Below are positions 13,704-59,818 of a stretch of 64,000 nt of DNA, piece by piece. The position numbers were made by a program, and so were the translations under genes. The notes below the pieces were generated by a model, which did no database searches, was not told the origin of the DNA, and saw only the letters and a list, made by a program, of their open reading frames with translations. Location of the stretch: contig JBAQFZ010000008.1 in assembly GCA_049287525.1 (NCBI GenBank), positions 23,541 through 87,540 on the forward strand. The letters run 5' to 3'. The first letter of the stretch is position 1; every line of letters starts with the position of its first letter. The stretch is from Halobacteriota archaeon. Its GTDB lineage: Archaea; Halobacteriota; Syntropharchaeia; Alkanophagales; Methanospirareceae.

Positions 13704-15752
13704 ATGAAGGGAAGAGCGATATTTATTGCAGCGATTTTAGTGGTATCTATTGTTGCTTTGACGGGTGTTGTGAGCAGCGTAGCAGCGACGGAAAAGATAG
13801 ATTTGTTCCTGTTAATAGATGGATCTGGTAGTGTCGCGGCGGAGGACTATATAAATCAAACGAGCGGCTATGCCGCGGCTATTGATAATGAATCGATTGT
13901 TCCACAGGACGGCTCTGTCTCGATTTGCGTGATTATGTTCGGCTTTAAGCCGGGTGGTGTGTATAATCCTCAACTTATGCCTTATAATGTATATAATTAC
14001 GCTAAGGTGATTGTTCCTTACACCACAATCACGAACGCAGCGGTGGCAAAAAGTGTTTCCGAAACGATAAGTAATACGAAGCAGCCGGGGGATGGGACAC
14101 CAATAGAAGCGGCATTCCATGTAGCGATTGAGGAGTTAAAGAAAGCAGTCAAAGAGGGTAAAATTGAACTGAATAAATCTACACAAAAGATAGATATATC
14201 CTCAGATGGACGCCCAAACATGATGCACTTACGGGACTTCTATGGCAAATTTAGAGATGAAAAAGACAAAGAAGCGGTATACAAAGCGTTTGATGCGAGA
14301 ACCGAAGCAATAGCGGCAGGATTTGACGAAATCAATGCGCTTGGTGTGGACCTCAAAGACACAACACGGTCTTATCCGTATAACCGTGAATTCCTGGAAG
14401 ATATGGTTTTGCCACAGCCTTGTGACACAGAGCCGCCAGGCTTTTTCATGGAGACGAGCAGGGCGGATTTTCCGAAGACATTAAAAGAGAAGATAAAAAT
14501 AGAATTACACCCATTTATCAGCGTCAATAAGAGTGTCAGTAAAATATTATGCAATCCCGGTGATGTACTGACCTATACGATAAATTATAGCAACACGAAT
14601 AACGTAAACCTGACAGAAGTCGTTTTAACCGACCCGATTCCTGCTACTACTACTACTTTAGTCTCAGGAAGCATATCAAATGGGGGGACGGTATCGTTGG
14701 ATGGCGTGATTACCTGGAACATAGGCGAGTTGCACGTAGGAAAAGCGGGCACGCAGTCGTTCCAGGTAAGGGTTCACGACCATCTCACAAACGGGACGAT
14801 AATCACGAATACCGCCACGATAGCGAGCAATGAAACAGGACCGGTCAGCGACTCGGTGAACACGACTGTTATATCTCATCCACATATCAGCATCACTAAA
14901 AGCGTCGGTGAAATATTATGCAATCCCGGTGACGTGCTGCACTATACGATAAATTATAGCAACACGAATAACGTAAACCTGACAGAAGTCGTTTTAACCG
15001 ACCCGATTCCTGCTACTACTACTTTAGTCTCAGGAAGCATATCAAATGGGGGGACGGTATCGTCGGATGGCGTGATTACCTGGAACATAGGCGAATTGCA
15101 CGTAGGAGAATCGGGCATGCAGTCGTTCCGGGCAAGGGTTCACGACTCCCTCGCAAACGGGACGATAATCACGAATACCGCCACGATAGCGAGCAATGAA
15201 ACAGGACCGGTCAGCGCCTCGGTGACCACGACTGTTATAGTGCCGAAAATTTTTGAACTATCAGCCTATAAGGCGGTTGATAAGATGTTTGCATCACCAA
15301 ACGAGACGCTCTGCTACCAGATACAATACAAAAATACCGGAACGGAGACGCTCACGCACACTGAGGTAAAAGATACGATACCAGAGAACACCACTTACAT
15401 AGCGGGAAGCATGGGTCTAAACGGTGAAGGTCTAACCGATGGAGCCGGTGATGACGCAGGAAGCTATTACGCAGGGAACAAGACGTTGATATGGGATATA
15501 GGTACATTGGAACCCGGTGAAGGCGGGGATGCGACCTTTAAAGTCACAATAAACGCATTTGTACCCGGAGGAACAATCATACGCAACACCGCTATCCTGA
15601 CAACTAATGAGACATTACCTATTAATCGGACGGTAATAACAAAGGTCAGACCGCCGATACTACTACCAGTGCTGACGTCAGTGGGTATCGCGGTCTTGAT
15701 CGGGCTGCTGAGTCTGGTTGCAATACGCGGTATGAGTGGAAGGCGAAGATAA
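13704..15752 (+). CDS. secreted vWA-domain + DUF11-repeat surface protein with C-terminal TM anchor
   Basis: Signal peptide; vWA MIDAS motif DLFLLIDGSGSV; two near-identical ~122-aa DUF11-type repeats (CNPGDVL.YTINYSNTNNVNLTEVVLTDPIPATTT); C-terminal PPILLP + TM + RRR. Confidence 0.7.
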   Translation: MKGRAIFIAAILVVSIVALTGVVSSVAATEKIDLFLLIDGSGSVAAEDYINQTSGYAAAIDNESIVPQDGSVSICVIMFGFKPGGVYNPQLMPYNVYNYAKVIVPYTTITNAAVAKSVSETISNTKQPGDGTPIEAAFHVAIEELKKAVKEGKIELNKSTQKIDISSDGRPNMMHLRDFYGKFRDEKDKEAVYKAFDARTEAIAAGFDEINALGVDLKDTTRSYPYNREFLEDMVLPQPCDTEPPGFFMETSRADFPKTLKEKIKIELHPFISVNKSVSKILCNPGDVLTYTINYSNTNNVNLTEVVLTDPIPATTTTLVSGSISNGGTVSLDGVITWNIGELHVGKAGTQSFQVRVHDHLTNGTIITNTATIASNETGPVSDSVNTTVISHPHISITKSVGEILCNPGDVLHYTINYSNTNNVNLTEVVLTDPIPATTTLVSGSISNGGTVSSDGVITWNIGELHVGESGMQSFRARVHDSLANGTIITNTATIASNETGPVSASVTTTVIVPKIFELSAYKAVDKMFASPNETLCYQIQYKNTGTETLTHTEVKDTIPENTTYIAGSMGLNGEGLTDGAGDDAGSYYAGNKTLIWDIGTLEPGEGGDATFKVTINAFVPGGTIIRNTAILTTNETLPINRTVITKVRPPILLPVLTSVGIAVLIGLLSLVAIRGMSGRRR

Positions 15753-15797: not shown

Positions 15798-16418
15798 ATG
15801 AGCGTGCAAGCAAAGGGGAAAGTGCGAAACGCACAGCGCAAGAAGAGGGTAGCGCAAAACACTGAGGGTAACGGTAAAAGCCATGCTAATTTATTAACCG
15901 CGGTATTGGAAAAAGCAAAAGAGAACGAGGAAGCGATAAAATACGTGGCGCGTTTCTTAGCTCTTTGTTTCGCGTTCTACATTGTCTATTATATCATAAT
16001 AGTTAGCGACACTATGGTGATGGCTAATATGAGGCACGTTACCACCACAATTTTGGGTGCTATCTTCTCTTTAGCCGGGCTGAAAGTAGTAGAGAGGGCT
16101 GATGTGTTATCCATCAATGGCTTCTCAATGGAGATAATAGATGAATGCACCGCAGTTTTCTCCGCTATCGTTTATTGCTCCTGCGTATTAGCATATCCCG
16201 CAACGCTGAAGCAGAAAAGTCTTGGTATCCTCTTCGGCGTGCCAAGCCTGTATGCGATAAATATCCTTCGCATTTTCCTATTGGCTCTTGTTGGCATGCG
16301 CAATCCCGATATGTTTAAATTTATGCATGTGTATCTCTGGCAGGCGTCTTTTATCATATTCGTGGTCGTGCTCTTTCTGATATGGCTAAAGATGGGGGTG
16401 ACAGATGGCGAAGGATAA
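15798..16418 (+). CDS. exosortase/archaeosortase-family membrane protein (short form)
   Basis: 206 aa with about 5-6 TM helices. IDECTAVFS resembles the exosortase active-site Cys motif, and AINILRIF matches the ANxxR(V/I) motif of the EpsH/archaeosortase family. Lys-rich N-terminus. Confidence 0.45.
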   Translation: MSVQAKGKVRNAQRKKRVAQNTEGNGKSHANLLTAVLEKAKENEEAIKYVARFLALCFAFYIVYYIIIVSDTMVMANMRHVTTTILGAIFSLAGLKVVERADVLSINGFSMEIIDECTAVFSAIVYCSCVLAYPATLKQKSLGILFGVPSLYAINILRIFLLALVGMRNPDMFKFMHVYLWQASFIIFVVVLFLIWLKMGVTDGEG

Positions 16419-18416: not shown

Positions 18417-19382
18417 TCAAACGATAACCTCCTCCCCCAATCTCGTGTCATCCAGCTCCTTAGTCCACCTGTTGAAATCCAGCCAGAGTATTACAGTAAT
18501 ACAGGTGAGGATAAGAAGATAAATGGCAACGACTATAAGCGTATCCAGCATTAACCGTTGATAAACTCTGTTTATCTCAGGTTTAAGCCCTTTTATATCA
18601 CCGAGCGCATTATCACGGTGTTTCTCATATAATTTCTCCGCGTGCTCATACGAATCCCGTGCTTTTATTATCTCCATAAATGCAGCGCCAAATAAGCTTG
18701 AAGAGGCGCTGCGGGCATTGTCAAGATACGACCTCGATGCCATTACATATTCTGATGCCCGTTCCATATCCCGTTTATACATCCGTTCATCACGTAGCGC
18801 CTCGAACTTCATCCGGCTTGCGTCACTGGGCATGCCACCCTCTCCGTATGAAGCCGAACTTATATACTCGTATTCTATCTTCACCTTTGTCACGTTCGTA
18901 TTGGTAGCCATGTCCTTGAAGTATCTTCCTTCGTCCCGGTAAAATCGCTTAAGTGCACGCTCGGCAAGCATTGGTATTCCATTCCTTTCCGCGGTGGCGT
19001 AGCTATTGAGTTTGATTATGGATGTGTTAATCGAATCAGCCATTTTTAGTGCTTCTTTATGGTCCGCGGGACTTTGACTCTCGCTTAACGGTGCCATCTT
19101 TTCAAACTTATCAACAATTGTGAGGAAGATATTTACCCACTCTTTTGTCGTATAGGTAACCTCTGAACCTTCCATACTCTGAATCACCGCCTGTACCTCT
19201 GCCTTTGCAAGTGATAACTCGTCATAGTCGTCAAATACCCCCGACTTGTTCAGCGATATTATATTCTGAAGCAGGTCCCTCTTCAGCGCGTCTGAGCCTG
19301 CCGCAGGTGTGGCGAAAGCCAGGAGGTTGATTATAATTATGGTTATAATCAGGACTAAGGCAATCAAACTTCGCGAGTTCAT
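18417..19382 (-). CDS. secreted/membrane-anchored helical protein (signal peptide + C-terminal TM)
   Basis: 321 aa; N-terminal hydrophobic signal and C-terminal TM segment LIVVAIYLLILTCITVILWL. Divergently transcribed from the FtsZ-like operon. Confidence 0.5.
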   Translation of the reverse strand: MNSRSLIALVLIITIIIINLLAFATPAAGSDALKRDLLQNIISLNKSGVFDDYDELSLAKAEVQAVIQSMEGSEVTYTTKEWVNIFLTIVDKFEKMAPLSESQSPADHKEALKMADSINTSIIKLNSYATAERNGIPMLAERALKRFYRDEGRYFKDMATNTNVTKVKIEYEYISSASYGEGGMPSDASRMKFEALRDERMYKRDMERASEYVMASRSYLDNARSASSSLFGAAFMEIIKARDSYEHAEKLYEKHRDNALGDIKGLKPEINRVYQRLMLDTLIVVAIYLLILTCITVILWLDFNRWTKELDDTRLGEEVIV

Positions 19383-19541: not shown

Positions 19542-20492
19542 ATGACTATGCGATACCTGCTTGTTGGACTGGGGAATGCCGGAATTGCAATTCTTAACGC
19601 TCTACTGGAGTACAAAGAGATAAAGAGTGCAAAGCCAAAGCCGGTTATTATCCTGCTACGGTCCGAGAGCGAGGGAGTGGATAAGATAGCAACTGCGTTA
19701 GAGCGAGCAAAAGGCGGGGGCGTTGATTTCGCGCTTCTCTTCACGGGATTTAGCAATAGTAATAATAGTAATATATCAGCAGCGGAAATATTGAATGATC
19801 AAAAGATAAAGACGCTTTTTATTGGCATTCTGCCTGCGAATAGAAGAGAAGAGCAGGAGGAGATAGTAAGTGTATATTCGTCACTGGAGAAGCTAAAAGC
19901 GCATGTGAAATCATTTATAATCGTGGATAACCAGCGTATAGCGCACCATCCAAACTACAAGGAGTTTTATCCACGGTATAACAGGTATATCGCCTCGTGC
20001 CTCGTGGACATCCTCGCAGGGATTCGTGTAAAGGACAGGGCAAACGTGTCCGGGGCGCAATCTGCCCTCCTTCCCATAGAAGAAGTGGTAAAGGCACTGT
20101 CTTTCAATGCTGAGCCGGGCTATGTGGCGGTATCGCGCAGTTCAGAACTTACAAAGGGCTTGATGGGTTATATCGTCCCGTTTACAAGGCACAAACCGCT
20201 TGACCTCAGAACGCTGCTACGGGTTTCGCTGGAGAAGTTCAGCGTTTCTGATGCACCGATAGTCTGTGATAAGAGCGTTTGTTTCCTGCGTGTGCCGGAT
20301 TATTATGTCAGGAGTGGGGGTGTGGATAAGAAATTAATAGAGGAATTCTTGCTCACGTATTCAAAAGAGAGCCATCTCGCGGTATCCGTTACGGGGCGAA
20401 ACACGGTGGCGATCACTAATTTGTTCGTATATAAATTTGAGCAACTGGGTAGATTACGAGATATAAGGGGAGTTGCGCATGAGGCGATATAG
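19542..20492 (+). CDS. divergent FtsZ/tubulin-like protein with degenerate GTP-binding T4 loop
   Basis: YLLVGLGNAGIAILNALLEY aligns to the FtsZ T1 region IKVIGVGGGGNNAV. DFALLFTGFSNSNNSNISAAEIL aligns to the T4 region (GGGTGTG replaced). KTLFIGILPANRREE is cf. VTKPFxFEG. SFIIVDNQRIA is cf. FtsZ TIPNDKLL. Confidence 0.5.
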   Translation: MTMRYLLVGLGNAGIAILNALLEYKEIKSAKPKPVIILLRSESEGVDKIATALERAKGGGVDFALLFTGFSNSNNSNISAAEILNDQKIKTLFIGILPANRREEQEEIVSVYSSLEKLKAHVKSFIIVDNQRIAHHPNYKEFYPRYNRYIASCLVDILAGIRVKDRANVSGAQSALLPIEEVVKALSFNAEPGYVAVSRSSELTKGLMGYIVPFTRHKPLDLRTLLRVSLEKFSVSDAPIVCDKSVCFLRVPDYYVRSGGVDKKLIEEFLLTYSKESHLAVSVTGRNTVAITNLFVYKFEQLGRLRDIRGVAHEAI

Positions 20493-21810
20493 TGTAGTAC
20501 TTGCTCCGCTGGTGCTTTTAGGTTTGATTGCACTTGGTATCTTCATCTTCTTCAAGGGCGGGTCGGACCTTGCATTAATAACTATTATCTTTATCTTTAT
20601 CCCTGCAATGATAGGAGCGGCATTTATGGTTCGATACCTCGTTACGGTACGGAAAGGAAGTCTAAGGGAGAAGGTGATGGTGCGGGACGTGGAGGGTGTA
20701 GCGAACCGGTATGTAGAACAGATGCGGATTCTACACGATTTCGAGGATAAATACGGTATAAGCACGAGCGAATTCCGGCGCGAGCTGGAGAAGGTAAAAG
20801 AAGGTTTAGCCGAACTGGGCTGTGAGGTAAATGGAAGGGTAAGGATGGACCGTGTGAAGCAAAGGAGCGTGGTCTTTGCCGATGTTGAATGGGTGACTAA
20901 GATGTTCGATGGTATAAAAGAGCGGCATGAAGTCGTACTTTATTCCCGGATGATAGAAAGAAGCAGGGCTTATCTTGATGGGCTAAGAGCACTTGAAGAC
21001 GCAGGCTATGATGGTATCCGGGGCAACATAGAGCAGATAGAATCAAAGATAGTGGAGGACGAGAACCTGAAGAAGGATTCACTTGAACTCTCCATCTTCA
21101 TGAATGAGCTGGATTCACGCATAGAAGAAGCGCTGAGAACCTGTTTGCATGATGCACACGGTTTAGAGGCGGAAGGTCGGGAGACGGCAAATGCGGACAC
21201 CGCCCGAGTCAGGACTGATATGAAGCTGGTCGAACATAGCATAGAGCGAGGAAACTACGAGAGCGCATCAAAAGTATTGAATAGCGTGATTGGGAGATTG
21301 AGCCGGATGCTGGCGGATGTGTTTGAACAATATAAGACAGACACGCTTGCGCTGACTGCCGTAGTTGTTGACATGCTGGGAAAGGAAGAAGAAGAGGTGG
21401 AGGTGGCAGTGGTGGATAGGGAGAAGGATAAGAATATGAATAAGAATAAGAAAGAGATAGAAGCGCTGCGGGAACACATCGAGAAGTGCATGACGCCTTC
21501 AGAGATGCGAAAGCTGCGGGCGTATGGAGATGCGCTCATATTAAAAGCAATAACCGCTTTAGAGGCGACTTATAATAAGATATTCACGATTGAAGAGCAA
21601 ATACTGCGGGAGAACCCGGCAACGGAATTGTATCCCGTGGAATACTGGACCAGGGATAAGATAGGCGAGATAGAGGAACTCAGGTCAATGCCAAAATCGG
21701 AAGTCAGTGATTTTGTTCGCAGATACCGTCTCTTAGCATCCGATGCTATTTCGCGGTTGGTGTATGATTCCGAGAGCTTAAGAAGGCTATCTCGCAAGCA
21801 GCAGGCATAA
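20479..21810 (+). CDS. membrane-anchored coiled-coil protein (2 N-terminal TM helices + long helical cytoplasmic domain)
   Basis: An ATG at 20479 has a GGGGAG 7 nt upstream (the track uses TTG at 20473). It overlaps the stop of the upstream gene. The sequence is E/R/K-rich with heptad periodicity. Confidence 0.55.
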   Translation: MRRYSVVLAPLVLLGLIALGIFIFFKGGSDLALITIIFIFIPAMIGAAFMVRYLVTVRKGSLREKVMVRDVEGVANRYVEQMRILHDFEDKYGISTSEFRRELEKVKEGLAELGCEVNGRVRMDRVKQRSVVFADVEWVTKMFDGIKERHEVVLYSRMIERSRAYLDGLRALEDAGYDGIRGNIEQIESKIVEDENLKKDSLELSIFMNELDSRIEEALRTCLHDAHGLEAEGRETANADTARVRTDMKLVEHSIERGNYESASKVLNSVIGRLSRMLADVFEQYKTDTLALTAVVVDMLGKEEEEVEVAVVDREKDKNMNKNKKEIEALREHIEKCMTPSEMRKLRAYGDALILKAITALEATYNKIFTIEEQILRENPATELYPVEYWTRDKIGEIEELRSMPKSEVSDFVRRYRLLASDAISRLVYDSESLRRLSRKQQA

Positions 21811-21874: not shown

Positions 21875-22315
21875 TTGAGTATGGAACCGTTGAGTATAGG
21901 AATACTTATTGTTGCCCTGTTGATCGCCGTGGAAGTGGTATTGATGCTGGTAAAATTAAAGGTGGACAAGATGCTGCTTCTTATGCCCGCCACCGGTGTG
22001 ATATGCGCCACTATCGCGTTTGTATTGAATGAATACCGTGATAAAATACCGTTAGCTGTGTCTGCCGCTCTTGTTGTGATATACGTTATGCTTGCCGTGG
22101 GCGTAGTATTGGGACTACTTGGAATTTTGGTATGGCTAAAAGGGGAGCAGGAAGCGAAGAAGATAATCAGCACGGCAAAAGGAATAGATAGCGCAGTTGC
22201 CCGAATTGACAGCGATATGAAGGGAAGCGAGCTGGAATTAGAGCATTTCGACGACGAGATGAGCGCGATAAAGACGAAGATGGCGGATTACGAGACGAAA
22301 GATAAGGAGGTCTGA
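21875..22315 (+). CDS. small membrane protein (3 TM) with C-terminal coiled-coil
   Basis: 146 aa; hydrophobic segments followed by KGSELELEHFDDEMSAIKTKMADYE. Confidence 0.5.
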   Translation: MSMEPLSIGILIVALLIAVEVVLMLVKLKVDKMLLLMPATGVICATIAFVLNEYRDKIPLAVSAALVVIYVMLAVGVVLGLLGILVWLKGEQEAKKIISTAKGIDSAVARIDSDMKGSELELEHFDDEMSAIKTKMADYETKDKEV

Positions 22316-22326
22316 TCGCGAGAGAG

Positions 22327-25017
22327 ATGGAGAAGGGTGAGGATACGGTAAACCGGATAGTAATAGGAATCGGTGGGCAGGGAGGCAGTATTGTAAACAA
22401 CCTGTTAAGGATGCTCAAGACAAAGACCGGGAAGGTGCCGAAGAATGAGGAGTTTTTGATTATTGATACCGATCAGGCATCAGCAAATGCGTGCACCGAA
22501 GTAGAAGAGCGAAGGAAGATAATACTGAGCAGACCCGATACGATATTGATGAAGAACGCGAACAGATGGCTGCCGGACCCATATCTTGCGGCTGCCGGCG
22601 CGGGATGCGGACAGCACCGGATATATGGCAGGGCGATGTATAACGTGCATCGCGAGCGGATATTCAGTGCGATAGGAACAGCCGCATCGGAATTGCGTAA
22701 CCGGACTGGTGGTAAGGACTTCTTCATTCTGATGGTCTGCGCATTGGGCGGGGGGACCGGTTCGAGTATGCTGCTCGACGTGGCGATAGACATCCGGGAT
22801 TGGATTTCAAAACAGTTTGGGTCAGAACCGGTGATGTTCGGAATAGGTATTCTACCTTCGAGCAAGGAGTCCGTGCTCCCGACTGGTAATGCCCTCGGTG
22901 CACTGAAGGAGCTCCATTTCCTCATGTCACATACCGGAGACATCATAATAGACGACAAGAATTATTCTAATCCATTCAAGCTGTTCTTCCTTTTAGGTCG
23001 TGACCTTCAGGGGCAGAACCGAGATGAGGAACTGGAAAGGGCGATACCAAGGTTCCTTCTCGACCTTGGTTTCTTGCCTGGCGGGACGGTAGAGACGAAG
23101 GGCAAGTGGCTTGACCTGAACGACCTGCAGAACCGTGCAAGGGGCTACGAGAACCGGTTTGATTCCCTGGGTTATTATGAATGCGTATTCCCCAGCGATA
23201 AATTGTTCCTTTATTATGACATCGAGGATGAGATACCGGTAGTCAGGCAGCGACTGGTAGAGATAGAGGCGCGAACCGCGGATATACGCGATAAAATAGT
23301 CTTGCAGCGAGGCGAACTGGAACGGTTTGAGGGCAGGATAAGAGATGCTCAGCGAGAGATAGATAGATACGAATCGGGGGGTGGACTGCTGTCGCACGTA
23401 AATGAGGGCGCAATCCGAGATGCGAAGGCGAAACTGGAAAGAGCGAAGAAGAAGTTATCGGATTTGAAAGAAGGCGTGTTCAACCTTGAGATACGGGTAA
23501 GTGATGCGGAAGAGGAGAAGCGGGTGATGGAGCGTAAGTTAGAACGGCTTGAGGCGTTAAAGAACAAGCTGCTCCGGGAGATAACCACGCCGGCGAATAC
23601 GCGAAGTTATCACCAGATAGAGCTTTCGGAGGATGAAGTGCGCGGCTTAAAGAAGAGCAGGGAAGACCTGAAGAATCTATCGTTCTTAGAGATTATGAAT
23701 AAACTGGATAGGGCGGAGGAATATTTCCGATGGACGCATTCGCCGATAAATGAAGGGGACGTGATATTCAATCCAATGGTAAACTACCGACATGCCATCG
23801 AGAATACCATGACCTCGAAATATATAGGCATCCTGAACGATTACGGATTCCTGACGGTAGATGCGCAGGGTAATGTGGTGAACGAGGAGGAGAAGTTCGG
23901 GCATTTCATCGCGGTATTGAGCACGAGGGCGGATAATTTCGATGATGGTCGGCTTGGCGGTGGCGCGTTTAAGAGCATGGTGACGGCACGATTCGCAAAA
24001 GATGCAGACGTGTTAAAATTGGATGCGCCGGCGCGTGCACACAGTTTCGCTATATACACGCTTATGATTGGACTGCAACCCTGGGCGTCAGGTCCAGGAC
24101 TACCGCCGCGACTGCGTGAATTTGAATGGATAGAGAAGGCGTATAAAGAGAGTGAGTTCTCTAAGCTACAAAGACATCATTCATTCTTTTACGGGACTAA
24201 TAAGCCGTTCTCTATGATTACTGATATACCGTACACACCGGGTGCCGAGGATAAGAATAGGGATATGGTGACGAACTACTGGCAGAATTACGAGATAATA
24301 GAGCCCGGGGTCTTATGGGATAATGTGCCTATCATGCTTGCGCAATGCCTGAAGATGTTTGATGATCTCTTAGTCGGGCTGGATATAGCAAGCGATATAA
24401 AGAACGTGCGGGTTCCGGACCCGGAGAGCTACTCAATCGCGAACCTCACGATGCTGGTTCACGAACTGGAAACCGCAGGTAGAAGTATGGAGAAGGTGAA
24501 TCAATGGACTAAAGAAGCAGGACGTGGGTTTACACATCTGAAAGACGAACTTGACGACTTGATAGTCCGGTTAAAGGGTACGGATGCCGGGCGACCTGCG
24601 GAAGACAAAGCGGGTAAGATGCTCCGGATGATTGACGATTCTAAGCGGGACATGGAGATATTGCTGGACCGGATTGATGATATGTCAAACAGCTTCAGTA
24701 ACGAGATAGAAGCATTCGTGGAAGGGGCAAAGGACTTTATCGGTAAGATTCCCTCGGGTGAGACCACATCAAGTGTGATAAGGCAGATAACAAAAGCGGA
24801 GACGGAGATTTCAAGGATACGAGAGAGCAGTATGAAAGCGGCGAAAGGGATAAGAGAGATGAGCAGTCCTCTGGCAACGCTGTTAGCAGCATTAAAAGAG
24901 CTGAAGGGAATAGTGGAACCAGAAGGAGAAGTCGAGGCGGGAGTAATGGAAGTGCATGGCGGTAAGGAGATGGAACTGCCTGATTTATCTACGGACATAA
25001 GGAGGAAAGAAGATTGA
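22327..25017 (+). CDS. FtsZ/tubulin-superfamily GTPase fused to ~600-aa coiled-coil extension
   Basis: T1 is IVIGIGGQGGSIVN. T2-like is LIIDTDQASA (cf. FtsZ NTDAQAL). T3 is AAGAGCGQH. T4 is the canonical ALGGGTGSS. IIIDDKNYSNP is cf. FtsZ IPNDKL. A long E/R/K-rich helical region follows. Confidence 0.7.
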   Translation: MEKGEDTVNRIVIGIGGQGGSIVNNLLRMLKTKTGKVPKNEEFLIIDTDQASANACTEVEERRKIILSRPDTILMKNANRWLPDPYLAAAGAGCGQHRIYGRAMYNVHRERIFSAIGTAASELRNRTGGKDFFILMVCALGGGTGSSMLLDVAIDIRDWISKQFGSEPVMFGIGILPSSKESVLPTGNALGALKELHFLMSHTGDIIIDDKNYSNPFKLFFLLGRDLQGQNRDEELERAIPRFLLDLGFLPGGTVETKGKWLDLNDLQNRARGYENRFDSLGYYECVFPSDKLFLYYDIEDEIPVVRQRLVEIEARTADIRDKIVLQRGELERFEGRIRDAQREIDRYESGGGLLSHVNEGAIRDAKAKLERAKKKLSDLKEGVFNLEIRVSDAEEEKRVMERKLERLEALKNKLLREITTPANTRSYHQIELSEDEVRGLKKSREDLKNLSFLEIMNKLDRAEEYFRWTHSPINEGDVIFNPMVNYRHAIENTMTSKYIGILNDYGFLTVDAQGNVVNEEEKFGHFIAVLSTRADNFDDGRLGGGAFKSMVTARFAKDADVLKLDAPARAHSFAIYTLMIGLQPWASGPGLPPRLREFEWIEKAYKESEFSKLQRHHSFFYGTNKPFSMITDIPYTPGAEDKNRDMVTNYWQNYEIIEPGVLWDNVPIMLAQCLKMFDDLLVGLDIASDIKNVRVPDPESYSIANLTMLVHELETAGRSMEKVNQWTKEAGRGFTHLKDELDDLIVRLKGTDAGRPAEDKAGKMLRMIDDSKRDMEILLDRIDDMSNSFSNEIEAFVEGAKDFIGKIPSGETTSSVIRQITKAETEISRIRESSMKAAKGIREMSSPLATLLAALKELKGIVEPEGEVEAGVMEVHGGKEMELPDLSTDIRRKED

Positions 25018-26096
25018 GGCGTATATTATCTTATAGCTCGCTTGCCGTTCTGGCACCTGTACTTGTACTTGTAGTTCTGTTTTCATGCGTGGGAATGAGT
25101 ATTGCTGCTGCTGCGGTTCAGGACGTGCTGAAGCTGAACGAAGGGCAGTCGTATGTCCGCAATTTAGAGCCGAGCAGGGTAGCGAGAATTAGCTATGACG
25201 CGTTTTTGAATAGCAATCAATTTGAAGGGGATACGCTTGAATTTCATATCTTCGTGGATAAGGTAGAGAAGGCACCCATTTTAGATGATTATGTCTTAAA
25301 ACTGGAGACAAATCTGGAGAATCCCGAATGGAAATTCGGCGATGACCTCTATCACTCTGCCGAGGTGATTGTATGGGAGGGCGAAGAAGCGCACACGCGC
25401 ATGGTTCCCGAGATTATACTATCTGGTGAGGTTCCCGCACCGATAATAACCATAAAAGAGCCGGGGTTCAACTACGATATTGATGGTATAGGGCAGGATA
25501 AGGTATATGTCAAATTAACTGTCGGGACGGTAAAGGAAAAGGAGGGGGCGACATTGAAGACCATCATCCAGAAACTGGAGCCGACAATGACGTTCTTCTC
25601 CACGAATGAGGGGATACAGAGCGCGAAGAGCGAGATGGATGAGAACCTGGAAGTGGCAAAAGGCAAGATTGGGGAGACGGAATTAGGAAAGGATATAGAA
25701 GAGCTCTACAAAAATGGGCATCCGGGTTGGGCATCTAAATTATCAACCGATTATAAGGCGCTATCGGTAGTGGCAGAGCCACCGCCAATTATGCTTTATG
25801 CCCTCGCCGCGATGATACTCGGGTTGATATTAGGTGCGGGATTCGTGTATGTGTATGTCTCGCGAGGCGGCGGCAAAGGTGTGGACGTGAGTGAGATTTC
25901 GTCAGAGCTGGATGATACTTCAGGTAGAATAGCAGAGAAGTCGGGTGCAATCAATGCGATTTCAACGAGGTTTGCGCGCAGCGCAGATGAAGAGCAGAGG
26001 GGCGCGGCGAGGGAGTTGCTAAAGATAAGAGCGAGTTTGAATGAGCTCGCGAATGAACTGAGGGCAATTGCAGATAGGATAAGGGGTTCGAGATAA
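25014..26096 (+). CDS. signal-peptide protein with ~230-aa extracellular domain, one TM and C-terminal cytoplasmic coiled-coil
   Basis: A TTG start overlaps the stop of the upstream gene (tTGA), with GGAGG 8 nt upstream. A TM helix (LYALAAMILGLILGAGFVYVYV) is followed by a helical tail. Confidence 0.55.
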   Translation: MRRILSYSSLAVLAPVLVLVVLFSCVGMSIAAAAVQDVLKLNEGQSYVRNLEPSRVARISYDAFLNSNQFEGDTLEFHIFVDKVEKAPILDDYVLKLETNLENPEWKFGDDLYHSAEVIVWEGEEAHTRMVPEIILSGEVPAPIITIKEPGFNYDIDGIGQDKVYVKLTVGTVKEKEGATLKTIIQKLEPTMTFFSTNEGIQSAKSEMDENLEVAKGKIGETELGKDIEELYKNGHPGWASKLSTDYKALSVVAEPPPIMLYALAAMILGLILGAGFVYVYVSRGGGKGVDVSEISSELDDTSGRIAEKSGAINAISTRFARSADEEQRGAARELLKIRASLNELANELRAIADRIRGSR

Positions 26097-26424: not shown

Positions 26425-26976
26425 CTATTTTCTTAATAGAGTCCAGTCAACGCAGCCGGGCTTATACCTGCGCCTTAACGCATCCTTTCGGCTGCTGCTT
26501 TCGCATTCTTCTATCTCGGTATCTATAATTTCGCGCACCACCGCAGCCACTTCTGCTACGCGCTTATCGCTGGTGTCCACCTCGTAGACCACAGCGCAGA
26601 GTTCAACCGCTTCTGTTAATATGATGTCCAGCGTTTCCGCATCCACATTCTCATCTCTCTTTCGCGCGGAGAAGCCTCTTTGCATTAGCCGTTTGGAGAG
26701 CAACAAAGGATTTGCACGCAGCACGATTACTACATCCGGGTTCAGTAGATGTGCTAAGTGGCTCTCTATCAGTAAAAAAGGTTTACGCACCTGTTGCAGG
26801 TATTCTTCTATTTTAGCGAGGTCTGCGATAAAGGAACCCCTTTCGGTATCTATACCGGTGTAGAATCCTTTTTCTTCTATTACACTATTCAAATCTATAT
26901 ATTCATATTCAAGCCCAAGTGCTTTGCATACACTTGTCTTTCCGGTGCCCGGAGTTCCGGTGATGGCGAGTCTCAT
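26425..26976 (-). CDS. adenylate kinase isoenzyme 6 / Fap7-like NTPase
   Basis: P-loop ITGTPGTGKTSV; motifs SHLAHLL, VVIVLRA and VDTSD; 183 aa, typical of archaeal Fap7/AK6. Confidence 0.7.
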   Translation of the reverse strand: MRLAITGTPGTGKTSVCKALGLEYEYIDLNSVIEEKGFYTGIDTERGSFIADLAKIEEYLQQVRKPFLLIESHLAHLLNPDVVIVLRANPLLLSKRLMQRGFSARKRDENVDAETLDIILTEAVELCAVVYEVDTSDKRVAEVAAVVREIIDTEIEECESSSRKDALRRRYKPGCVDWTLLRK

Positions 26977-27190: not shown

Positions 27191-29476
27191 ATGGAAACAA
27201 AAAAGAGAGGAGGAACGATAACAGGTATTGCTCTGGTAGCGATTATGGTCGCTTCAGTTATGCTCGCAATGGTCGCGAGCACCGCAGCGTACAGCACAGG
27301 CGGAAAATACAATATCATTAACAACTCAACAACACCACCTGCACAACAAGTACTGACAGGACAGGATCTGAAATTCATAAAGGGTACTGATGCTCTTGAG
27401 TGGACATCGGCACCGACAGTAATGCAGTATGGATCTAATGGTAACCAAGAACATACGTATCCATCGGCAGTGGGAGACGGTGGGGACTTTTACATCGACA
27501 ACGTGGACTGGGGTACGTCAGGTACATTTTATGTGAACGGTGGTGCGACCGTAAGTGCTGCCTACTGCGCACAGCTTTCTGTCAGTGACCCAAAAATACC
27601 GCTGCAGCTAAAAGTAGGTGATAAGATAGTGACGTCACTTGCCAAGGGTACGCCAGGATTTCACACAGATGTTGGAGGTAGAAATCTGTTCCCCGAGGAT
27701 GGTGTAGACCTCGTGATTATGGGTCCCAACGGGCAGATAACAACAAAGAACGGCCAGAATTTTAAAGGCATAAATGTGAGTACATTGACCGATTATACAA
27801 GTGTGAACTTTATTAACACCACAGGCTGGGACGTAGGGCATTACACCTTCCAGGTGAAGACCAAACCGGAAAACGCATGTGGCCTGGATACACAGAGCAC
27901 ACTGCGGGAGATGAACATAATAAAAGCTGCGGTAACAATAACAGCGGAGCCGACAGAAGTAGCGGAACTCACAACCGTGAAACTCACAGTAACTGGTGTT
28001 GCCGGTACGCCGATAAATGTACTAGAAGACACTTTAAGTCCGCATGCTTATTTCCCTGCAGGGCTTAATGACAACCAGGGACCAAAGAATAACAATTTCA
28101 CTGATACAATAGACAGTGACGGCACGCGGACCTACGCAGTGGAGTTCAACGATACCGGTGCATACACAATTAAAGTGACGGATTTAAACGATCTATCAGG
28201 AGATACATATGACACCGTTGACATTACCGTTACAGAGAAGGGAGTTACCTTTGACGTGCCAAGCACAGTAGTTATCGGGCAGCGGTTTACGATAAAAGGG
28301 ACTGCAAATACAGGCAATATGGTTACGGTTGCCGTGGATGACGAGGTGGTGTTGAAACTGAATAATATCGTAATAGACGAGAACAACGAATTCTCGGAGG
28401 AGATAGATACAAGCGCAGATGCAGCACCCGGGGCATTCAAGCTTCCAGGTTCTGTGAGGTTGAAGGCGTACATTGACTATCCAGGGGGCACTGGTCCGGT
28501 ACTCCAAGGCATAACAGACGATGGCTCGTTTGCGATATTAATGACAAAAGGCGAATTAACGGCTGAACTGTCAACAAAAAGCGTAGCGAAGGGCGATGAT
28601 TTCACAATCATCGGTAAGGCAAAAGGCTCAAAGAACGTGAATATATTGATAGTCGCACCAAAGGGTTTCAGTGGTTCAAACATAGAAACAAACGGTAAGG
28701 AGATGTATTACACATCAACGTCTGTCACAACTACCGATGATAGTTTCTACAAGAAGATCACCGTGAACGATGACGTGAACTCGGGCAAATATCTCGTGAT
28801 GATACTCAGCGCGGGAAGCGACGACAAATGGGGAAAGAGCGGTTACGATACACTTTATAACCCAAGTAAGCCAACGGATACTAATACCGCTTTAGGTCAG
28901 TATACATTAAGCACCAGGACACAGGAAGGGATGTTGGAGATAGTAAAAGATATGAGTGCTTTAAGCGATGACCTCCTGTGGATAGGGCTCGTAAACGTGG
29001 AATCGCCGTATGTGATTCTTAACCCAATAGCAGAGGTGAACATTGGAGAACCTATGGAAGTAACAGGAACTACAAACAGAAAGGATGGATATACCATAGT
29101 TGTCACAGCTAAAGGACCGACAGAGCTAACTCCGGCGACCGTACCGGTACATAACAGTACGTTCAACGCAACGTTAGACACTTCAGATGCTAAGGTAGGC
29201 GTGTACGTAGTGACGGCAGACGATGGTGATGGTAATACAGATACAGAGCAGGTGAGCATAGGAGGAGCAGCAGTACCGGCTGAGACGCCACTAACATCGC
29301 CAGCAGCAGAAACACCAATGCCAACAGCAGAAGCACCAACGCCAGCAGCAGAAACACCAATGCCAACAGAAGAAGCACCAACACCAACACCAAAACCAGT
29401 ACCAGGATTCGTAGGTGTGTTCGCCATTGCAGGCTTGTTAGCGGTTGCCTACCTATTACTGAGGAGAAGGAAGTAG
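27191..29476 (+). CDS. PGF-CTERM surface (S-layer-like) glycoprotein
   Basis: Signal peptide; 700-aa beta-rich ectodomain; Thr/Pro-rich linker AETPMPTAEAPTPAAETPMPTEEAPTPTPKP; PGF motif + TM + RRRK at the C-terminus (archaeosortase A sorting signal). Confidence 0.8.
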   Translation: METKKRGGTITGIALVAIMVASVMLAMVASTAAYSTGGKYNIINNSTTPPAQQVLTGQDLKFIKGTDALEWTSAPTVMQYGSNGNQEHTYPSAVGDGGDFYIDNVDWGTSGTFYVNGGATVSAAYCAQLSVSDPKIPLQLKVGDKIVTSLAKGTPGFHTDVGGRNLFPEDGVDLVIMGPNGQITTKNGQNFKGINVSTLTDYTSVNFINTTGWDVGHYTFQVKTKPENACGLDTQSTLREMNIIKAAVTITAEPTEVAELTTVKLTVTGVAGTPINVLEDTLSPHAYFPAGLNDNQGPKNNNFTDTIDSDGTRTYAVEFNDTGAYTIKVTDLNDLSGDTYDTVDITVTEKGVTFDVPSTVVIGQRFTIKGTANTGNMVTVAVDDEVVLKLNNIVIDENNEFSEEIDTSADAAPGAFKLPGSVRLKAYIDYPGGTGPVLQGITDDGSFAILMTKGELTAELSTKSVAKGDDFTIIGKAKGSKNVNILIVAPKGFSGSNIETNGKEMYYTSTSVTTTDDSFYKKITVNDDVNSGKYLVMILSAGSDDKWGKSGYDTLYNPSKPTDTNTALGQYTLSTRTQEGMLEIVKDMSALSDDLLWIGLVNVESPYVILNPIAEVNIGEPMEVTGTTNRKDGYTIVVTAKGPTELTPATVPVHNSTFNATLDTSDAKVGVYVVTADDGDGNTDTEQVSIGGAAVPAETPLTSPAAETPMPTAEAPTPAAETPMPTEEAPTPTPKPVPGFVGVFAIAGLLAVAYLLLRRRK

Positions 29477-51777: not shown

Positions 51778-52352
51778 CTACACCGCCTCCTTCAATCGCA
51801 TATTTCGAAATATTCAGGAACCAATATCCATCTTTCAATATCTTTTCGCTATTGACTATTCTTATCCGGTTTTTGAACCCAGGTCCATCAATAACAAATG
51901 TGTGGTATTCACCAAATTCACCACAGTAATCGAGTCCTTTATGAGAACTACGTAAATCGCTTACAAATTCGTTATCTATCTTTCGTCCAAGCCACTCTTT
52001 GTCAAATAAATCTGCTTTAGCACTCACTACAATCGCCTCAAATCCTGCACCTATAAAGTCTGTTATGATTTGCTCGGAATCGCAGTTCCAAAATTACTTT
52101 TTTAAATTCTTGCTCATACGATATAAAATCTCTTTGAAGAATTGGAATTCCAATCGCTTGTGATTGCGCAGAGAGCAGTTCAGGATTTAGTTCATGAGAC
52201 CCGCTTCTCTTCATATCTCTAAAACTCAAGAGATAGGAGACATCATACCCTTCTGAAATTGCTTTATAACATGCAAAACAACCATCTTTTCCTCCAGTCC
52301 AGGAGACAACAAGCTTGTTGTTAATTTTATCTAAAGTACTACCAGTTTTCAT
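51746..52352 (-). pseudogene. PP-loop ATP pyrophosphatase (MJ0570 / diphthine-ammonia ligase-like), split by frameshift
   Basis: ORF 52038..52352 has the PP-loop SWTGGKDG. ORF 51746..52027 carries the family C-terminal part GEYHTFVIDGPGF in another frame. Confidence 0.5.
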
Positions 52353-52449
52353 TTCCCGTACCTAATATTATACAGAGTCTGCACCCATATAAATTTAGGT
52401 TTTTGTTTAGTACCCAATGCTTGCATAATCAACCTCCTTTTTTCTGATG

Positions 52450-52812
52450 TCACGCTAATCTAATAGCGGGAATCCAATCGCTATATCTTCTCCCGTTTGC
52501 ATCCACAAACTCCGTGCAGGTTATGAATCCCGTGGAAGTTGAATGATTACCGGTATGATGAATCTGCGGATAAGAACCTGTTTCTATGACGTAGGTGTAT
52601 TCATTGTTTTTATACAGCGTGACAGAAGGAGTAATTGTTATGTTATGCCAGTCGCTCGAATAGCCGTTCCCGGTGCCACTTGCTATCAAGTCGCCATTTT
52701 CATATATCTTGATAGACTCGGTGTGCCCACCAGTGCCTGCACATGGATAGGTGTACACCCTGCTAAATCTGATGTCGTAAGACGGTATGATTTTGCCGTC
52801 GTGCTTGCCCAT
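52450..52812 (-). other. detached C-terminal domain ORF of surface-protein paralog A
   Basis: MGKHDGKIIPSYDIRFSRVYTYPCAGTGGHTESIKIYENGDLIASG... is about 85% identical to the last 120 aa of the intact paralog at 56371..59433. Confidence 0.55.
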
Positions 52813-52884
52813 GATGCTTGGATATGGGTTAGGTGGCGAACCTGTGTCAAATATTTTCTCTTCCGGGGGTTTAATGTAATTATT

Positions 52885-55800: not shown

Positions 55801-55893
55801 CGTCGCAATCTTACCCAGTAAGCCTGTTTTTCTTTCCTCGGGTCCTCTTATCCAATTCTTCATAGCCGGTTTTCGTTGAGAATTCTTTTTCAA
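52885..55893 (-). CDS. secreted legumain-like (C13) peptidase domain + PbH1 parallel beta-helix repeat protein, paralog A (C-terminal domain separated by stop)
   Basis: Signal/TM; His-Gly FFFSGHG and Cys ILSACYSGG catalytic dyad of the caspase/legumain fold; over 20 Asn-rich 23-aa PbH1 repeats; a TGA where the paralog reads through. Confidence 0.6.
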   Translation of the reverse strand: MKKNSQRKPAMKNWIRGPEERKTGLLGKIATIFVIGLMLMLGLFFNGSVCGEIEGEGISLNANYTGITFEEATVTPAEEYWAVIVGATSVYAYQDAHDIYNVLTRASDNWEASHIRFLVNESATKANIRNAIQWMANNAGTEDTCLFFFSGHGDNDTLDHNGDEADGIDESLRVFDAEIIDDELEEWIGEVKAKKAVAILSACYSGGVLTPYQISEATETYNTYELDGFAMDLEKANCMVLASSRMNETGIWASALKNGVFTYYIVQGLWGAADLDGDSRISIRELSDYSFPKIVEYSENFYPNPQHPLLWPEDDTASNLTLIKLKTHVPKKICVPEEYLTIQEAVEAAMPGDTIEVYPGTYNENLVINKPLTIYAPNGDSIIQAANTAQSCIFITVDNTSISGLTVQNGLYGIYLYKSNNSWITNNVVMQNNESGILLWSSNNNTLIDNLASDNKYGIWLYKSINNNITNNTAGDNENDGIYFSYSNNNSISSNNCSNTSGGGSILLWSSNNNSIENNTANNNKFDGIRLRETSNHNTIKGNVVNANNESGILLWASNNNTLIENLASDNKHGIWLHESSNNNNVTNNTAGDNENYGIYFSYSNNNSISSNNCSNISGGGSILLWSSNNNSIENNTANNNKFDGIRLRESSNRNAITGNVVNSNNESGILLWSSNNNSIENNTAKNNRVDGIYLLKKSNNNRINDNDASNNDYHGISLNLSTSNEICNNIANSNHYQGIRLLSSSGSTIANNTAENNSGNGIYLSYSSTNKLTGNIMLGNGIVIRGYLPTHYEHEIDKSNTVNGKPVYYWRGIEGGIIPDGAGQVILINCKNILVENQNLNNASIGIQTAYSSYITIKNNNCSHNSDGIYLSDSNNNSISSNDCSNNRNGIYLFLDSNNNSISNNNCSSNNHYGISIWYSNSNKIYLNNFINNTENVYSYKSTNIWNSPEKINYTYMGSTYTNYLGNYWHNFTSTDANNDGIWDNPYIIDPDKDYYPLMES

Positions 55894-56123: not shown

Positions 56124-56127
56124 TTTC

Positions 56128-56364: not shown

Positions 56365-56370
56365 TCTTTA

Positions 56371-59714: not shown

Positions 59715-59818
59715 TTTTTACATATCACCTTCTTTTCCTTTTATACCTTTTCTGCCAGAGGTATTTAAAAGCTATTCGATTTATTTATAGTCATTTTCAC
59801 CATCTCATTTTTGAGAGC

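What the first reader, a model, noticed from the sequence alone, without database searches (positions are those of the whole stretch)
22327..25017. 896-aa FtsZ/tubulin GTPase with ~600-aa coiled-coil C-terminal extension
These motifs are read directly from the translation: GIGGQGGS (T1 glycine loop), IIDTDQASA (cf. FtsZ NTDAQAL), AAGAGCGQH (T3) and ALGGGTGSS (T4, the tubulin signature GGGTGSG). Downstream, GIGILPSSKES is cf. VVTKPFxFEG, and IIIDDKNYSNP is cf. TIPNDKL. The canonical FtsZ C-terminal domain appears to be replaced by about 600 residues of predicted alpha-helix/coiled-coil with SMC-like heptads. This architecture differs from FtsZ, CetZ and tubulin.
Basis: seen in the sequence. Interest (0 to 1): 0.85.

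Follow-up and report, generated by a model that had tools for sequence, protein, structure and literature searches.

The report
Known FtsZl1 tubulin-like protein, ANME-1
The gene encodes a real but already catalogued divergent tubulin/FtsZ relative (the FtsZl1 / Pfam Tubulin_2 family, described in 2010) from a methane-oxidising ANME-1 archaeon; structure prediction shows it keeps the whole tubulin fold with a helical hairpin inserted, and it sits in a conserved operon with a GTP-motif-less second tubulin and several membrane proteins.

The parts
22327..25017 (+). Gene D: FtsZl1 / Tubulin_2-family protein, 896 aa
   Evidence: ORF. Pfam PF13809 82.5 bits. 100% identical NCBI protein and 77 homologues. 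AF2 model pLDDT 84.3, pTM 0.74.
22348..23067 (+). N-terminal nucleotide-binding domain up to the H7-like helix (aa 8-247): T1 aa 14-21, T2 D47-T-D49, T3 aa 91-101, T4 aa 139-147, S5/T5 aa 172-182, S6 aa 219-223, H7-like helix aa 233-246
   Evidence: Invariant or near-invariant columns. Profile alignment to CetZ 4b46 and 3zid. Secondary structure of the model.
23104..23136 (+). T7-like loop and start of H8 (aa 260-270, K-W-L-D263-L-N-D266-L-Q-N-R)
   Evidence: D263 in 36 of 40 and D266 in 33 of 40 full-length subfamily members. P0073 reads WLDFADI, compare FtsZ N-x-D-F-A-D-V. It lies between the H7-like helix and the S7-like strand 278-287 in the model. The assignment is by pattern and topology, not by residue-level superposition.
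23194..23586 (+). Inserted antiparallel helical hairpin (aa 290-349 and 360-420, turn at ESGGGLLSHV)
   Evidence: Model. Heptad signal and high charge. Coiled-coil-only hits to SMC, Rad50, gp26. CetZ/FtsZ alignments jump over it: Foldseek alignments span about 600 columns for targets of about 300-380 aa.
23608..24306 (+). Helical subdomain plus alpha/beta region (aa 428-660) holding the remainder of the tubulin/FtsZ C-terminal domain (strands 524-533, 557-566, 573-583; helix 545-555), with invariant W586, R595, Y606, G623, W652
24304..24915 (+). C-terminal bundle of four long helices (aa 660-863)
   Evidence: Model. Strong 3.5-residue periodicity. Weak profile similarity to EzrA and other helical bundles.
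24925..25014 (+). Disordered acidic tail (aa 867-896) with an 'ELPDLS' motif shared among close ANME-1 orthologues
   Evidence: pLDDT below 50. Alignment.
19542..20492 (+). Gene A: 316-aa complete tubulin/FtsZ fold lacking the T2-T3 segment and the T4 glycine signature (predicted pseudo-GTPase)
   Evidence: AF2 pLDDT 86.3, pTM 0.88. Foldseek: TubZ 2e-13, CetZ1 7e-13 with TMq 0.73. Alignment with GTP-motif-bearing relatives P0179-P0181. hhalign against the FtsZl1 profile E 1.6e-5. Conserved first gene of the block in L002, L008, L009.
20473..21810 (+). Gene B: 445-aa protein, two N-terminal TM helices plus a long helical cytoplasmic part
   Evidence: Hydropathy. 35% identical orthologue in Syntrophoarchaeum. 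No Pfam family.
21875..22315 (+). Gene C: about 145-aa protein, three TM helices plus a heptad-rich tail (probable ATG start at 21881)
   Evidence: Hydropathy and periodicity. Orthologue at 42%. A small membrane protein sits directly upstream of FtsZl1 in every related locus. Shine-Dalgarno sequence and start.
25014..26096 (+). Gene E: 360-aa bitopic membrane protein (signal/TM 10-28, ectodomain, GHPGWA motif, TM 259-277, heptad-rich cytoplasmic tail), translationally coupled to D
   Evidence: TTGA overlap and AAGGAGG. Hydropathy. Homologues next to FtsZl1 in all loci examined, E 2e-21 to 3e-11. No known domain.
18417..19382 (-). Gene U: 321-aa membrane protein (N-terminal signal/TM, helical ectodomain, C-terminal TM), transcribed divergently from A
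   Evidence: Sequence. 45% orthologue in the same position in Syntrophoarchaeum. Same position in L008 and L009.

Best explanation
Gene D is an orthologue of the FtsZl1 (Pfam Tubulin_2) family in an ANME-1 (Methanophagales) archaeon. It is a complete two-domain tubulin/FtsZ-fold protein with intact GTP-binding loops and a T7-like acidic motif. A roughly 90-A helical hairpin is inserted in it, and a four-helix bundle is appended. I propose three steps. (1) It binds GTP and self-associates head to tail like FtsZ, CetZ and tubulin, with the T7-like D263/D266 of one subunit completing the GTPase site of the next. (2) The filament, or short oligomer, is held at the cytoplasmic face of the membrane because its hairpin and helical bundle pair with the heptad-rich cytoplasmic tails of the co-encoded membrane proteins E, C and B. 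E and U expose domains outside the cell, so the assembly spans the envelope. (3) ORF A, a paralogous tubulin fold that cannot bind GTP in the canonical way, acts as a non-catalytic partner such as a cap, nucleator or spacer. The cellular output would be organisation or remodelling of the cell envelope (shape, envelope growth or membrane remodelling) rather than primary cytokinesis. Shown here: family membership, fold, motif conservation, operon conservation, membrane topology predictions. Inferred: GTP binding and hydrolysis, polymerisation, all protein-protein contacts, and the cellular role.
Against: There is no experimental data for any FtsZl1 protein in the literature I could search. The C-terminal domain and the position of T7 rest on one AlphaFold2 model built from 10 sequences. 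Profile-profile comparison does not detect the C-domain even after the insertion is excised. The tools gave no residue-level structural alignment. Longitudinal contacts could be blocked by the hairpin or the bundle. The contacts with B, C, E and A are guesses from co-occurrence and heptads. The 2010 authors considered that FtsZl1 might polymerise by a novel mechanism or not at all. The window alone does not show whether this genome also has canonical FtsZ or CetZ.
Confidence: 0.5

Rival explanations
1. Membrane remodelling or vesicle biogenesis machine, the original Makarova & Koonin 2010 proposal. The FtsZl1 complex deforms or pinches membranes instead of acting as a shape or envelope scaffold.
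For: Published inference from operons rich in membrane proteins and vWA proteins. The window's block also encodes four membrane proteins. A distant relative's cluster starts with a vWA protein (L004). The hairpin and helical bundles weakly resemble PspA/Vipp1/ESCRT-III-like helical proteins.
Confidence: 0.2
2. Component of an NTP-dependent biological-conflict (immunity) system, as Kaur, Burroughs, Iyer and Aravind (2020) proposed for bacterial operons that combine tubulin-plus-coiled-coil proteins, vWA proteins and GAP1-N2 GTPases. Threshold-triggered polymerisation would act as an effector.
For: PMC7159879 describes firmicute systems with two tubulin-plus-coiled-coil genes, vWA proteins and a GTPase. 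Two tubulin-superfamily genes co-occur here too. One of them is degenerate, as 'decoy' or inactive paralogues often are in such systems. L004 carries a vWA gene.
Against: The defining GTPase is absent: no Walker A motif in any of the six products, and no MIDAS motif apart from one chance D-x-S-x-S inside the helical bundle. There are no PADLOC hits other than coiled-coil noise. The block lies among housekeeping genes in three divergent ANME-1 genomes and in Syntrophoarchaeum. It is highly conserved (73-88%) and appears vertically inherited across the clade, unlike patchy, fast-evolving defence islands.
Confidence: 0.12
3. Non-polymerising GTP-gated switch or obligate A-D heterodimer. D pairs once with the pseudo-tubulin A, like an alpha/beta-tubulin dimer with one dead site, and works as a membrane-bound regulator, not as a filament.
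For: A has lost its nucleotide loops but keeps the whole fold. At the position matching FtsZ D212, A has E or R in different orthologues, which recalls the non-catalytic Lys in beta-tubulin T7. A is always the first gene of the block in this clade.
Against: In other lineages the linked second tubulin has intact GTP motifs and belongs to different sub-lineages, so a fixed heterodimer is not a conserved feature of the subfamily. A evolves much faster (50-60% identity) than D (about 80%) in the same genomes. D keeps both faces needed for self-association.
Confidence: 0.12
4. SMC-like chromosome-partition protein or a CetZ, as some database records name close homologues.
For: Source names 'Chromosome partition protein Smc' and 'Tubulin-like protein CetZ' on 82%-identical proteins. 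CetZ is the closest solved structure.
Against: SMC models score 24 and 21 bits against cut-offs of 729 and 567, over the hairpin only, and there is no ABC ATPase head or Walker A motif. Sequence similarity to CetZ is marginal (E 3e-4 with a family profile). The protein matches Tubulin_2 far better than PF00091 (82.5 against 31.3 bits, the latter below its cut-off). It also carries about 500 residues that CetZ lacks.
Confidence: 0.03

Closest known systems
FtsZl1 (FtsZ-like 1) family = Pfam PF13809 Tubulin_2 (Makarova & Koonin 2010, Biol Direct 5:33)
   Same: [quoted passage not shown] It is encoded with membrane proteins. An ANME-1 orthologue (CBH38753) is in the founding list, on a branch with Methanospirillum Mhun_0728.
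   Different: The window's protein belongs to a narrow subfamily of about 40 clusters at 50% identity. This subfamily aligns with the bulk of the family (mostly 1000-1200 aa) only over the first ~200 residues. Its operon lacks the vWA protein, P-loop GTPase, protein kinases and OmpA that characterise the published operons. Instead it has a pseudo-tubulin (A) and the membrane proteins U, B, C and E. The predicted structure shows a T7-like motif and the C-terminal tubulin domain, which the 2010 sequence analysis could not find.
CetZ (archaeal tubulin-like cell-shape proteins; PDB 4b45, 4b46, 3zid)
   Different: CetZ is about 350-400 aa with no inserted hairpin and no C-terminal helical bundle. 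Sequence similarity is marginal. Not the same family.
FtsZ / TubZ / tubulin
   Same: Two-domain fold, T1/T3/T4 loops, and an acidic T7-type motif (FtsZ D-F-A-D-V; alpha-tubulin D-L-T-E-F; here D-L-N-D-L).
   Different: TIGR00065 FtsZ scores 14.6 bits against a cut-off of 295. There is no FtsZ_C or Tubulin_C Pfam match. A ~230-residue insertion interrupts the C-terminal domain. There is no conserved C-terminal FtsA/SepF-type peptide.
GAP1-N2 GTPase-centric conflict systems with tubulin-coiled-coil proteins (Kaur et al. 2020, eLife 9:e52696)
   Same: Tubulin domain fused to a coiled-coil/alpha-helical region, sometimes two tubulin genes per locus, and vWA partners in some relatives.
   Different: No GAP1-N2 or any P-loop GTPase, and no vWA, in this block. 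It lies in an archaeal core-genome context.

Membership tests
FtsZl1 / Pfam PF13809 Tubulin_2 | Match to the family HMM above the curated gathering score | tested here: met
   82.5 bits, E 4.5e-23, aa 11-238, against a gathering score of 27. All 77 homologues carry PF13809.
FtsZl1 / Pfam PF13809 Tubulin_2 | Architecture: N-terminal FtsZ-like domain, extended coiled coil, mostly alpha-helical C-terminal region | tested here: met
   AF2 model: GTPase-type domain, 2 x 60-aa hairpin, then helical and alpha/beta regions and a four-helix bundle. Published definition read.
FtsZl1 / Pfam PF13809 Tubulin_2 | Orthology to a sequence in the founding set | tested here: met
   gi 268325165 / CBH38753 'uncultured archaeon' has near-identical T1, S2 and T4 blocks in Additional file 2.
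FtsZl1 / Pfam PF13809 Tubulin_2 | Operon partners reported for most members: vWA protein, diverged P-loop GTPase, Ser/Thr kinases, OmpA (archaea: A2 - FtsZl1 - membrane GTPase - A1). Frequent, but not strictly defining. | tested here: not met
   No Pfam VWA, kinase or OmpA hits, and no Walker A or genuine MIDAS motif in U, A, B, C, D or E. A small membrane protein (C) occupies the A2 position. One distant relative (L004) has a vWA gene.
Tubulin/FtsZ superfamily | T1 glycine loop and T4 signature GGGTG[ST]G | tested here: met
   G14/G16/G17/G19 and G141-S146 invariant in A1. T4 aligned to CetZ GGGTGS. Conserved in 40 subfamily members.
Tubulin/FtsZ superfamily | Two-domain fold: Rossmann-like nucleotide-binding domain, core helix, and C-terminal beta-alpha domain | tested here: met
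Tubulin/FtsZ superfamily | T7 loop with acidic residue(s) that activate GTP hydrolysis in the neighbouring subunit | tested here: met
   D263-x-x-D266-[LIF], 36/40 and 33/40 conserved, in the loop and helix that follow the H7-like helix. Assigned by pattern and topology. Catalytic role not testable here.
Tubulin/FtsZ superfamily | GTP-dependent polymerisation and polymerisation-dependent GTPase activity | not testable with these tools
   Needs purified protein, or at least multimer modelling, which was not available.
CetZ | Membership of the CetZ clade, with a compact protein of about 350-400 aa | tested here: not met
   Only E 3e-4 to CetZ sequences with a family profile. PF00091 is below its cut-off (31.3 against 33) while Tubulin_2 scores 82.5. 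The protein is 896 aa with large insertions.
FtsZ (TIGR00065) | Equivalog HMM above cut-off | tested here: not met
   14.6 bits against a cut-off of 295.2.
SMC / Rad50 | ABC ATPase head (Walker A and B) flanking a long coiled coil and hinge | tested here: not met
   24.1 and 21.2 bits against cut-offs of 729 and 567, over aa 301-437 only. No Walker A motif.
GAP1-N2 / tubulin conflict systems (Kaur et al. 2020) | Core TRAFAC-clade GTPase (GAP1-N2) linked to the tubulin gene, usually with vWA proteins | tested here: not met
   No P-loop protein in the block. No PADLOC match beyond coiled-coil noise.

The most novel reading that the evidence does not exclude
ANME-1 and Syntrophoarchaeum carry a dedicated two-tubulin machine that spans the envelope. 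FtsZl1 would be a full tubulin fold that polymerises through a canonical T7-activated interface. Its inserted hairpin and helical bundle would dock onto the coiled-coil tails of the membrane proteins E, C, B and U. A GTP-motif-less pseudo-tubulin (ORF A) would cap or nucleate the filament. That would make FtsZl1 a fourth functional class of prokaryotic tubulin cytoskeleton beside FtsZ, CetZ and TubZ/PhuZ, with a built-in non-catalytic partner analogous to the asymmetric alpha/beta-tubulin pair.
Probability: 0.3. Interest if true: 0.65.

Novelty: new member of a known kind. Interest (0 to 1): 0.4.

Why it matters
FtsZl1 has been known on paper since 2010 but has never been studied experimentally, and it is routinely set aside as an outgroup in tubulin phylogenies. 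If the predicted structure is right, the family is not a truncated GTPase domain fused to a coiled coil. It is a complete tubulin/FtsZ fold with a conserved T7-type motif, which makes GTP-driven polymerisation a concrete, testable expectation. It also gives specific mutants to try (D263, D266; hairpin deletion). The conserved pairing with a membrane protein (E), and in ANME-1 with a pseudo-tubulin, gives a defined set of partners for reconstitution. ANME-1 archaea cannot be cultured and their cell biology is almost unknown, so a conserved, core-genome cytoskeletal module is a useful handle. It does not overturn anything established.

Tried and rejected
(1) Single-sequence search of PDB sequences with D gave nothing significant. 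Only the family profile reached CetZ.
(2) Profile-profile comparison of the FtsZl1 profile with the ORF A family detected only the T1 and S4-H5 regions. After excising the insertion (aa 290-505) there was still no C-domain signal, so the C-domain claim is structural only.
(3) The second word-indexed homologue search, run with the alignment, added only four distant hits. The exhaustive HMM search was needed to see the family structure.
(4) PADLOC gave only coiled-coil matches (JetC, LmuB, DndD, E 1e-4 to 1e-2), which I rejected as compositional.
(5) The SMC, Rad50, PspA, APG6 and EzrA hits were rejected as helical or coiled-coil composition.
(6) Protein E: a family profile against PDB sequences, and Pfam, gave only coiled-coil tail hits and no domain assignment.
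(7) The bacterial promoter/terminator scan is uninformative for an archaeon: fewer promoter-like sites than in shuffles.
(8) The closest GTP-competent relative of ORF A (P0181) is not next to an FtsZl1 gene. It sits beside another PF00091 tubulin gene, so ORF A's ancestry does not by itself show an ancient A-D partnership.
(9) A DUF1194 (vWA-like) surface protein lies at 13704-15752. I considered it as the 'missing' vWA partner and set it aside because unrelated genes intervene and it is absent from the conserved block in L008 and L009.
(10) The first MAFFT run timed out and was repeated with fast settings.
Full report
OBSERVATION. The window has an ATG-initiated ORF at 22327-25017 (+) encoding 896 aa. 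Pfam places aa 11-238 in PF13809 Tubulin_2 (E 4.5e-23, 82.5 bits, gathering score 27). It matches PF00091 Tubulin more weakly, at 31.3 bits, just under that model's cut-off of 33. In an alignment of ten relatives at 26-76% identity, G14, G16, G17 and G19 (T1), D47 (T2), R98 and G101 (T3/H3) and G141-G-G-T-G-S146 (T4) are invariant. A family profile searched against PDB sequences aligns T4 and the following 'GIGILPSskE' strand and loop residue for residue with CetZ 4b46 and 3zid (E about 3e-4).

The sixth does not. 'IIIDDKNYSNP' is a gappy, poorly conserved loop. The conserved strand is N215-P-F-x-x-F-F-L222-x-G-R225-[DE], which is the strand at 219-223 in the model.

WHAT THE REST OF THE PROTEIN IS. 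An AlphaFold2 model built from the ten-sequence alignment, without templates, is confident (mean pLDDT 84.3, pTM 0.74). After the nucleotide-binding domain come, in order:
- a 14-residue helix (233-246);
- a low-confidence loop;
- a short helix (264-271) and a long conserved strand (278-287);
- two 60-residue antiparallel helices (290-349 and 360-420);
- a cluster of short helices;
- a beta-alpha-beta-beta unit (524-583);
- more helices;
- four long helices (660-863);
- a disordered acidic tail.

Heptad periodicity is strong only in 340-420 and 700-870. So there is no 600-residue coiled coil.

Sequence profiles do not see this even after the insertion is excised. That explains why the 2010 analysis could align FtsZl1 only as far as helix H5. 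This part of the argument rests on a predicted structure.

T7. Between the H7-like helix and the S7-like strand lies K260-W-L-D263-L-N-D266-L. In a 40-member alignment of the full-length subfamily, D263 is kept in 36 and D266 in 33. One member reads W-L-D-F-A-D-I, essentially the FtsZ motif N-x-D-F-A-D-V. Alpha-tubulin has D-L-T-E-F at the same place (the FtsZ and tubulin motifs are from established knowledge of those families). I assign T7 by pattern and topological position. I could not obtain a residue-level superposition.

WHAT IT IS. This is the FtsZl1 family of Makarova and Koonin (Biol Direct 2010, PMC2875224). [quoted passage not shown] Their Additional files list gi 268325165 (CBH38753, 'uncultured archaeon'). 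Its aligned blocks (TVNRVAIGIGGQGSSIVNNILRTLKHKTG; RNEEFLIIDTD; FLILMVCAFGGGTGSSMLLDIAIDIRDWISKQ) are nearly identical to the window's protein, and it branches with Methanospirillum Mhun_0728.

The large protein database holds a 100% identical NCBI entry, 'MAG: tubulin-like domain-containing protein [Halobacteriota archaeon]'. It also holds about 60 ANME-1/Methanophagales clusters at 73-88% identity, Syntrophoarchaeum at 65%, and Altiarchaeales and others at 27-35%. Some sources mislabel homologues as CetZ or Smc.

An exhaustive HMM search of 1.84 billion representatives found 824 proteins at E <= 1e-10. About 40 align over the whole length. The bulk of the family, mostly 1000-1200 aa, aligns only over profile positions ~9-200. 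So the window's protein belongs to a narrow, distinct subfamily of a known family. Later papers treat 'FtsZ-like (Tubulin_2)' only as an outgroup (PMC9871819). I found no experimental work on it.

CONTEXT. The gene is the fourth of five tightly packed genes on the + strand:
- A, 19542-20492.
- B, 20473-21810.
- C, 21875-22315.
- D, 22327-25017.
- E, 25014-26096.

AAGGAGG sequences precede D and E, and D and E share a TTGA stop/start overlap. A sixth gene, U (18417-19382, minus strand), is transcribed divergently.

Membrane predictions:
- B has two N-terminal TM helices and a long helical cytoplasmic part.
- C has three TM helices and a heptad-rich tail.
- E has a signal/TM segment, an ectodomain of about 230 aa, a TM helix and a heptad-rich tail.
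- U has N- and C-terminal TM segments flanking a helical ectodomain.

None of the six products has a Walker A motif or a genuine MIDAS motif. None matches VWA, kinase or OmpA models. The partners reported for most FtsZl1 operons are therefore absent.

The block U|A-B-C-D-E recurs with the same order and gene sizes in two divergent ANME-1 genomes and in Syntrophoarchaeum. In each case it sits among housekeeping genes such as ribosomal proteins, eIF2-alpha, PFK, aldolase, PEP synthase and AspRS. The window's flanks are also housekeeping. In more distant members the conserved core is a small TM protein, then FtsZl1, then an E homologue (E 2e-21 to 3e-11). One such locus also has a vWA gene.

THE SECOND TUBULIN. 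ORF A hits PF00091 weakly (E 5e-5). Its AF2 model (pLDDT 86.3, pTM 0.88) matches TubZ, CetZ1/2 and FtsZ over its whole length (E 2e-13 to 1e-11; TMq 0.73 to CetZ1). Its closest non-ANME relatives (P0179-P0181, 28% identity) have GIGQCG, GGFGNYPENAE, GMGGGTGSG and a D-I-D-F-N-D-I T7. The ANME-1/Syntrophoarchaeum clade has deleted about 36 residues spanning T2-T3 and has unconserved residues such as 'GFS-NS-NNSN' in place of T4. ORF A is therefore predicted to be a pseudo-GTPase.

ORF A orthologues are at 50-60% identity where D orthologues are at about 80%. A second tubulin-superfamily gene lies near FtsZl1 in five of six independent contexts. Those genes belong to at least three divergent lineages and have intact T4 motifs. 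The closest GTP-competent relative of A is not itself next to an FtsZl1 gene.

MECHANISM. The best-supported reading (confidence about 0.5) is a membrane-anchored, GTP-dependent tubulin-type filament system of the cell envelope. Conservation of T1, T4 and the T7-type acidic pair argues for an active site completed between subunits, and therefore for head-to-tail association. The hairpin and four-helix bundle are obvious platforms for the heptad-rich tails of E, C and B. E and U put domains outside the membrane. A would act as a non-catalytic cap, nucleator or spacer. All contacts and activities are inferred.

Rivals:
- The original membrane-remodelling/vesicle proposal (0.2), which shares the mechanism but differs in output.
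- The conflict-system interpretation of Kaur et al. 2020 (0.12). It is weakened by the absence of the defining GTPase, the core-genome context and high conservation.
- A non-polymerising A-D heterodimeric switch (0.12).
- SMC or CetZ identity (0.03), rejected on HMM scores and architecture.

NOVELTY AND SCORE. The finding as stated, a new tubulin architecture, is not new. It is a member of a family described in 2010, with a Pfam model and an orthologue in the founding set. Three points go beyond what I could find published:
- The prediction that this subfamily retains the complete two-domain fold with a T7-type motif, interrupted by an insertion.
- The conserved partnership with protein E.
- In ANME-1 and Syntrophoarchaeum, a degenerate second tubulin and three further membrane proteins in place of the vWA/GTPase partners.

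These are useful, testable refinements to an uncharacterised family, not a categorical novelty. Interest 0.4.

Noticed in passing
window 19542-20492 (+): ORF A is a 316-aa complete tubulin/FtsZ fold that has deleted the T2-T3 segment and lost the GGGTG[ST]G signature. Relatives at 28% identity keep all GTP motifs. It is the first gene of the FtsZl1 block and evolves faster than FtsZl1.
   Followed up: yes
window 13704-15752 (+) and 15798-16418 (+): A 682-aa surface protein combines a DUF1194 (vWA-like fold) domain with DUF11/DUF7619/DUF7507 repeats and a halo-type signal peptide. An exosortase/archaeosortase-like membrane protein follows it. It lies about 4 kb upstream of the FtsZl1 block and is not part of the conserved block in other genomes.
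   Followed up: partly
window 26425-26976 (-) and 27191-29476 (+): A small AAA_18/Fap7-like kinase and a 761-aa PGF-CTERM S-layer-type glycoprotein (MEMAR_RS02690 family, sub-threshold) sit directly downstream of gene E. The same pair (a 202-aa AAA_18 protein and an 807-aa protein) follows the block in ANME-1 locus L009. Whether the envelope protein is functionally linked was not tested.
   Followed up: partly
window 52001-60000: GC content drops to 0.38-0.40 from a window average of about 0.46. This could be a horizontally acquired or otherwise atypical segment.
   Followed up: no
L001 3852-7204 (Altiarchaeales): Two adjacent genes (341 and 726 aa) upstream of the FtsZl1 trio are built from repeated modules of about 100 aa ('...DTWEITDGN.YEI.D...') followed by coiled coil. 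They occupy the place of genes A and B in ANME-1. A 461-aa PF00091 tubulin with an intact GGGSGCG motif and a 304-aa coiled-coil protein are transcribed divergently.
   Followed up: partly
L004 311-4430: In the most divergent subfamily member's locus, the cluster begins with an 898-aa vWA protein and a 476-aa tubulin (GGGTGGG) overlapping it by 8 nt. This links the subfamily to the vWA association described in 2010.
   Followed up: partly
L007 5469-7945: The closest GTP-competent relative of ORF A (P0181, 404 aa) is convergent with, and overlaps by 4 nt, another PF00091 tubulin gene (421 aa). This is a tubulin pair with no FtsZl1 nearby.
   Followed up: no
database names of homologues: Close homologues are variously named 'Tubulin-like protein CetZ', 'Chromosome partition protein Smc' and 'hypothetical protein'. 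One partial copy (P0066, 87% identical) is attributed to a 'Desulfuromonadales bacterium', which is probably a binning error from an ANME/SRB consortium.
   Followed up: no
hits P0210, P0214, P0218, P0219, P0223: A group of subfamily members of 1009-1055 aa carries an extra N-terminal region of about 180-200 aa ahead of the tubulin domain. Its nature (kinase, as in planctomycete FtsZl1, or something else) was not examined.
   Followed up: no
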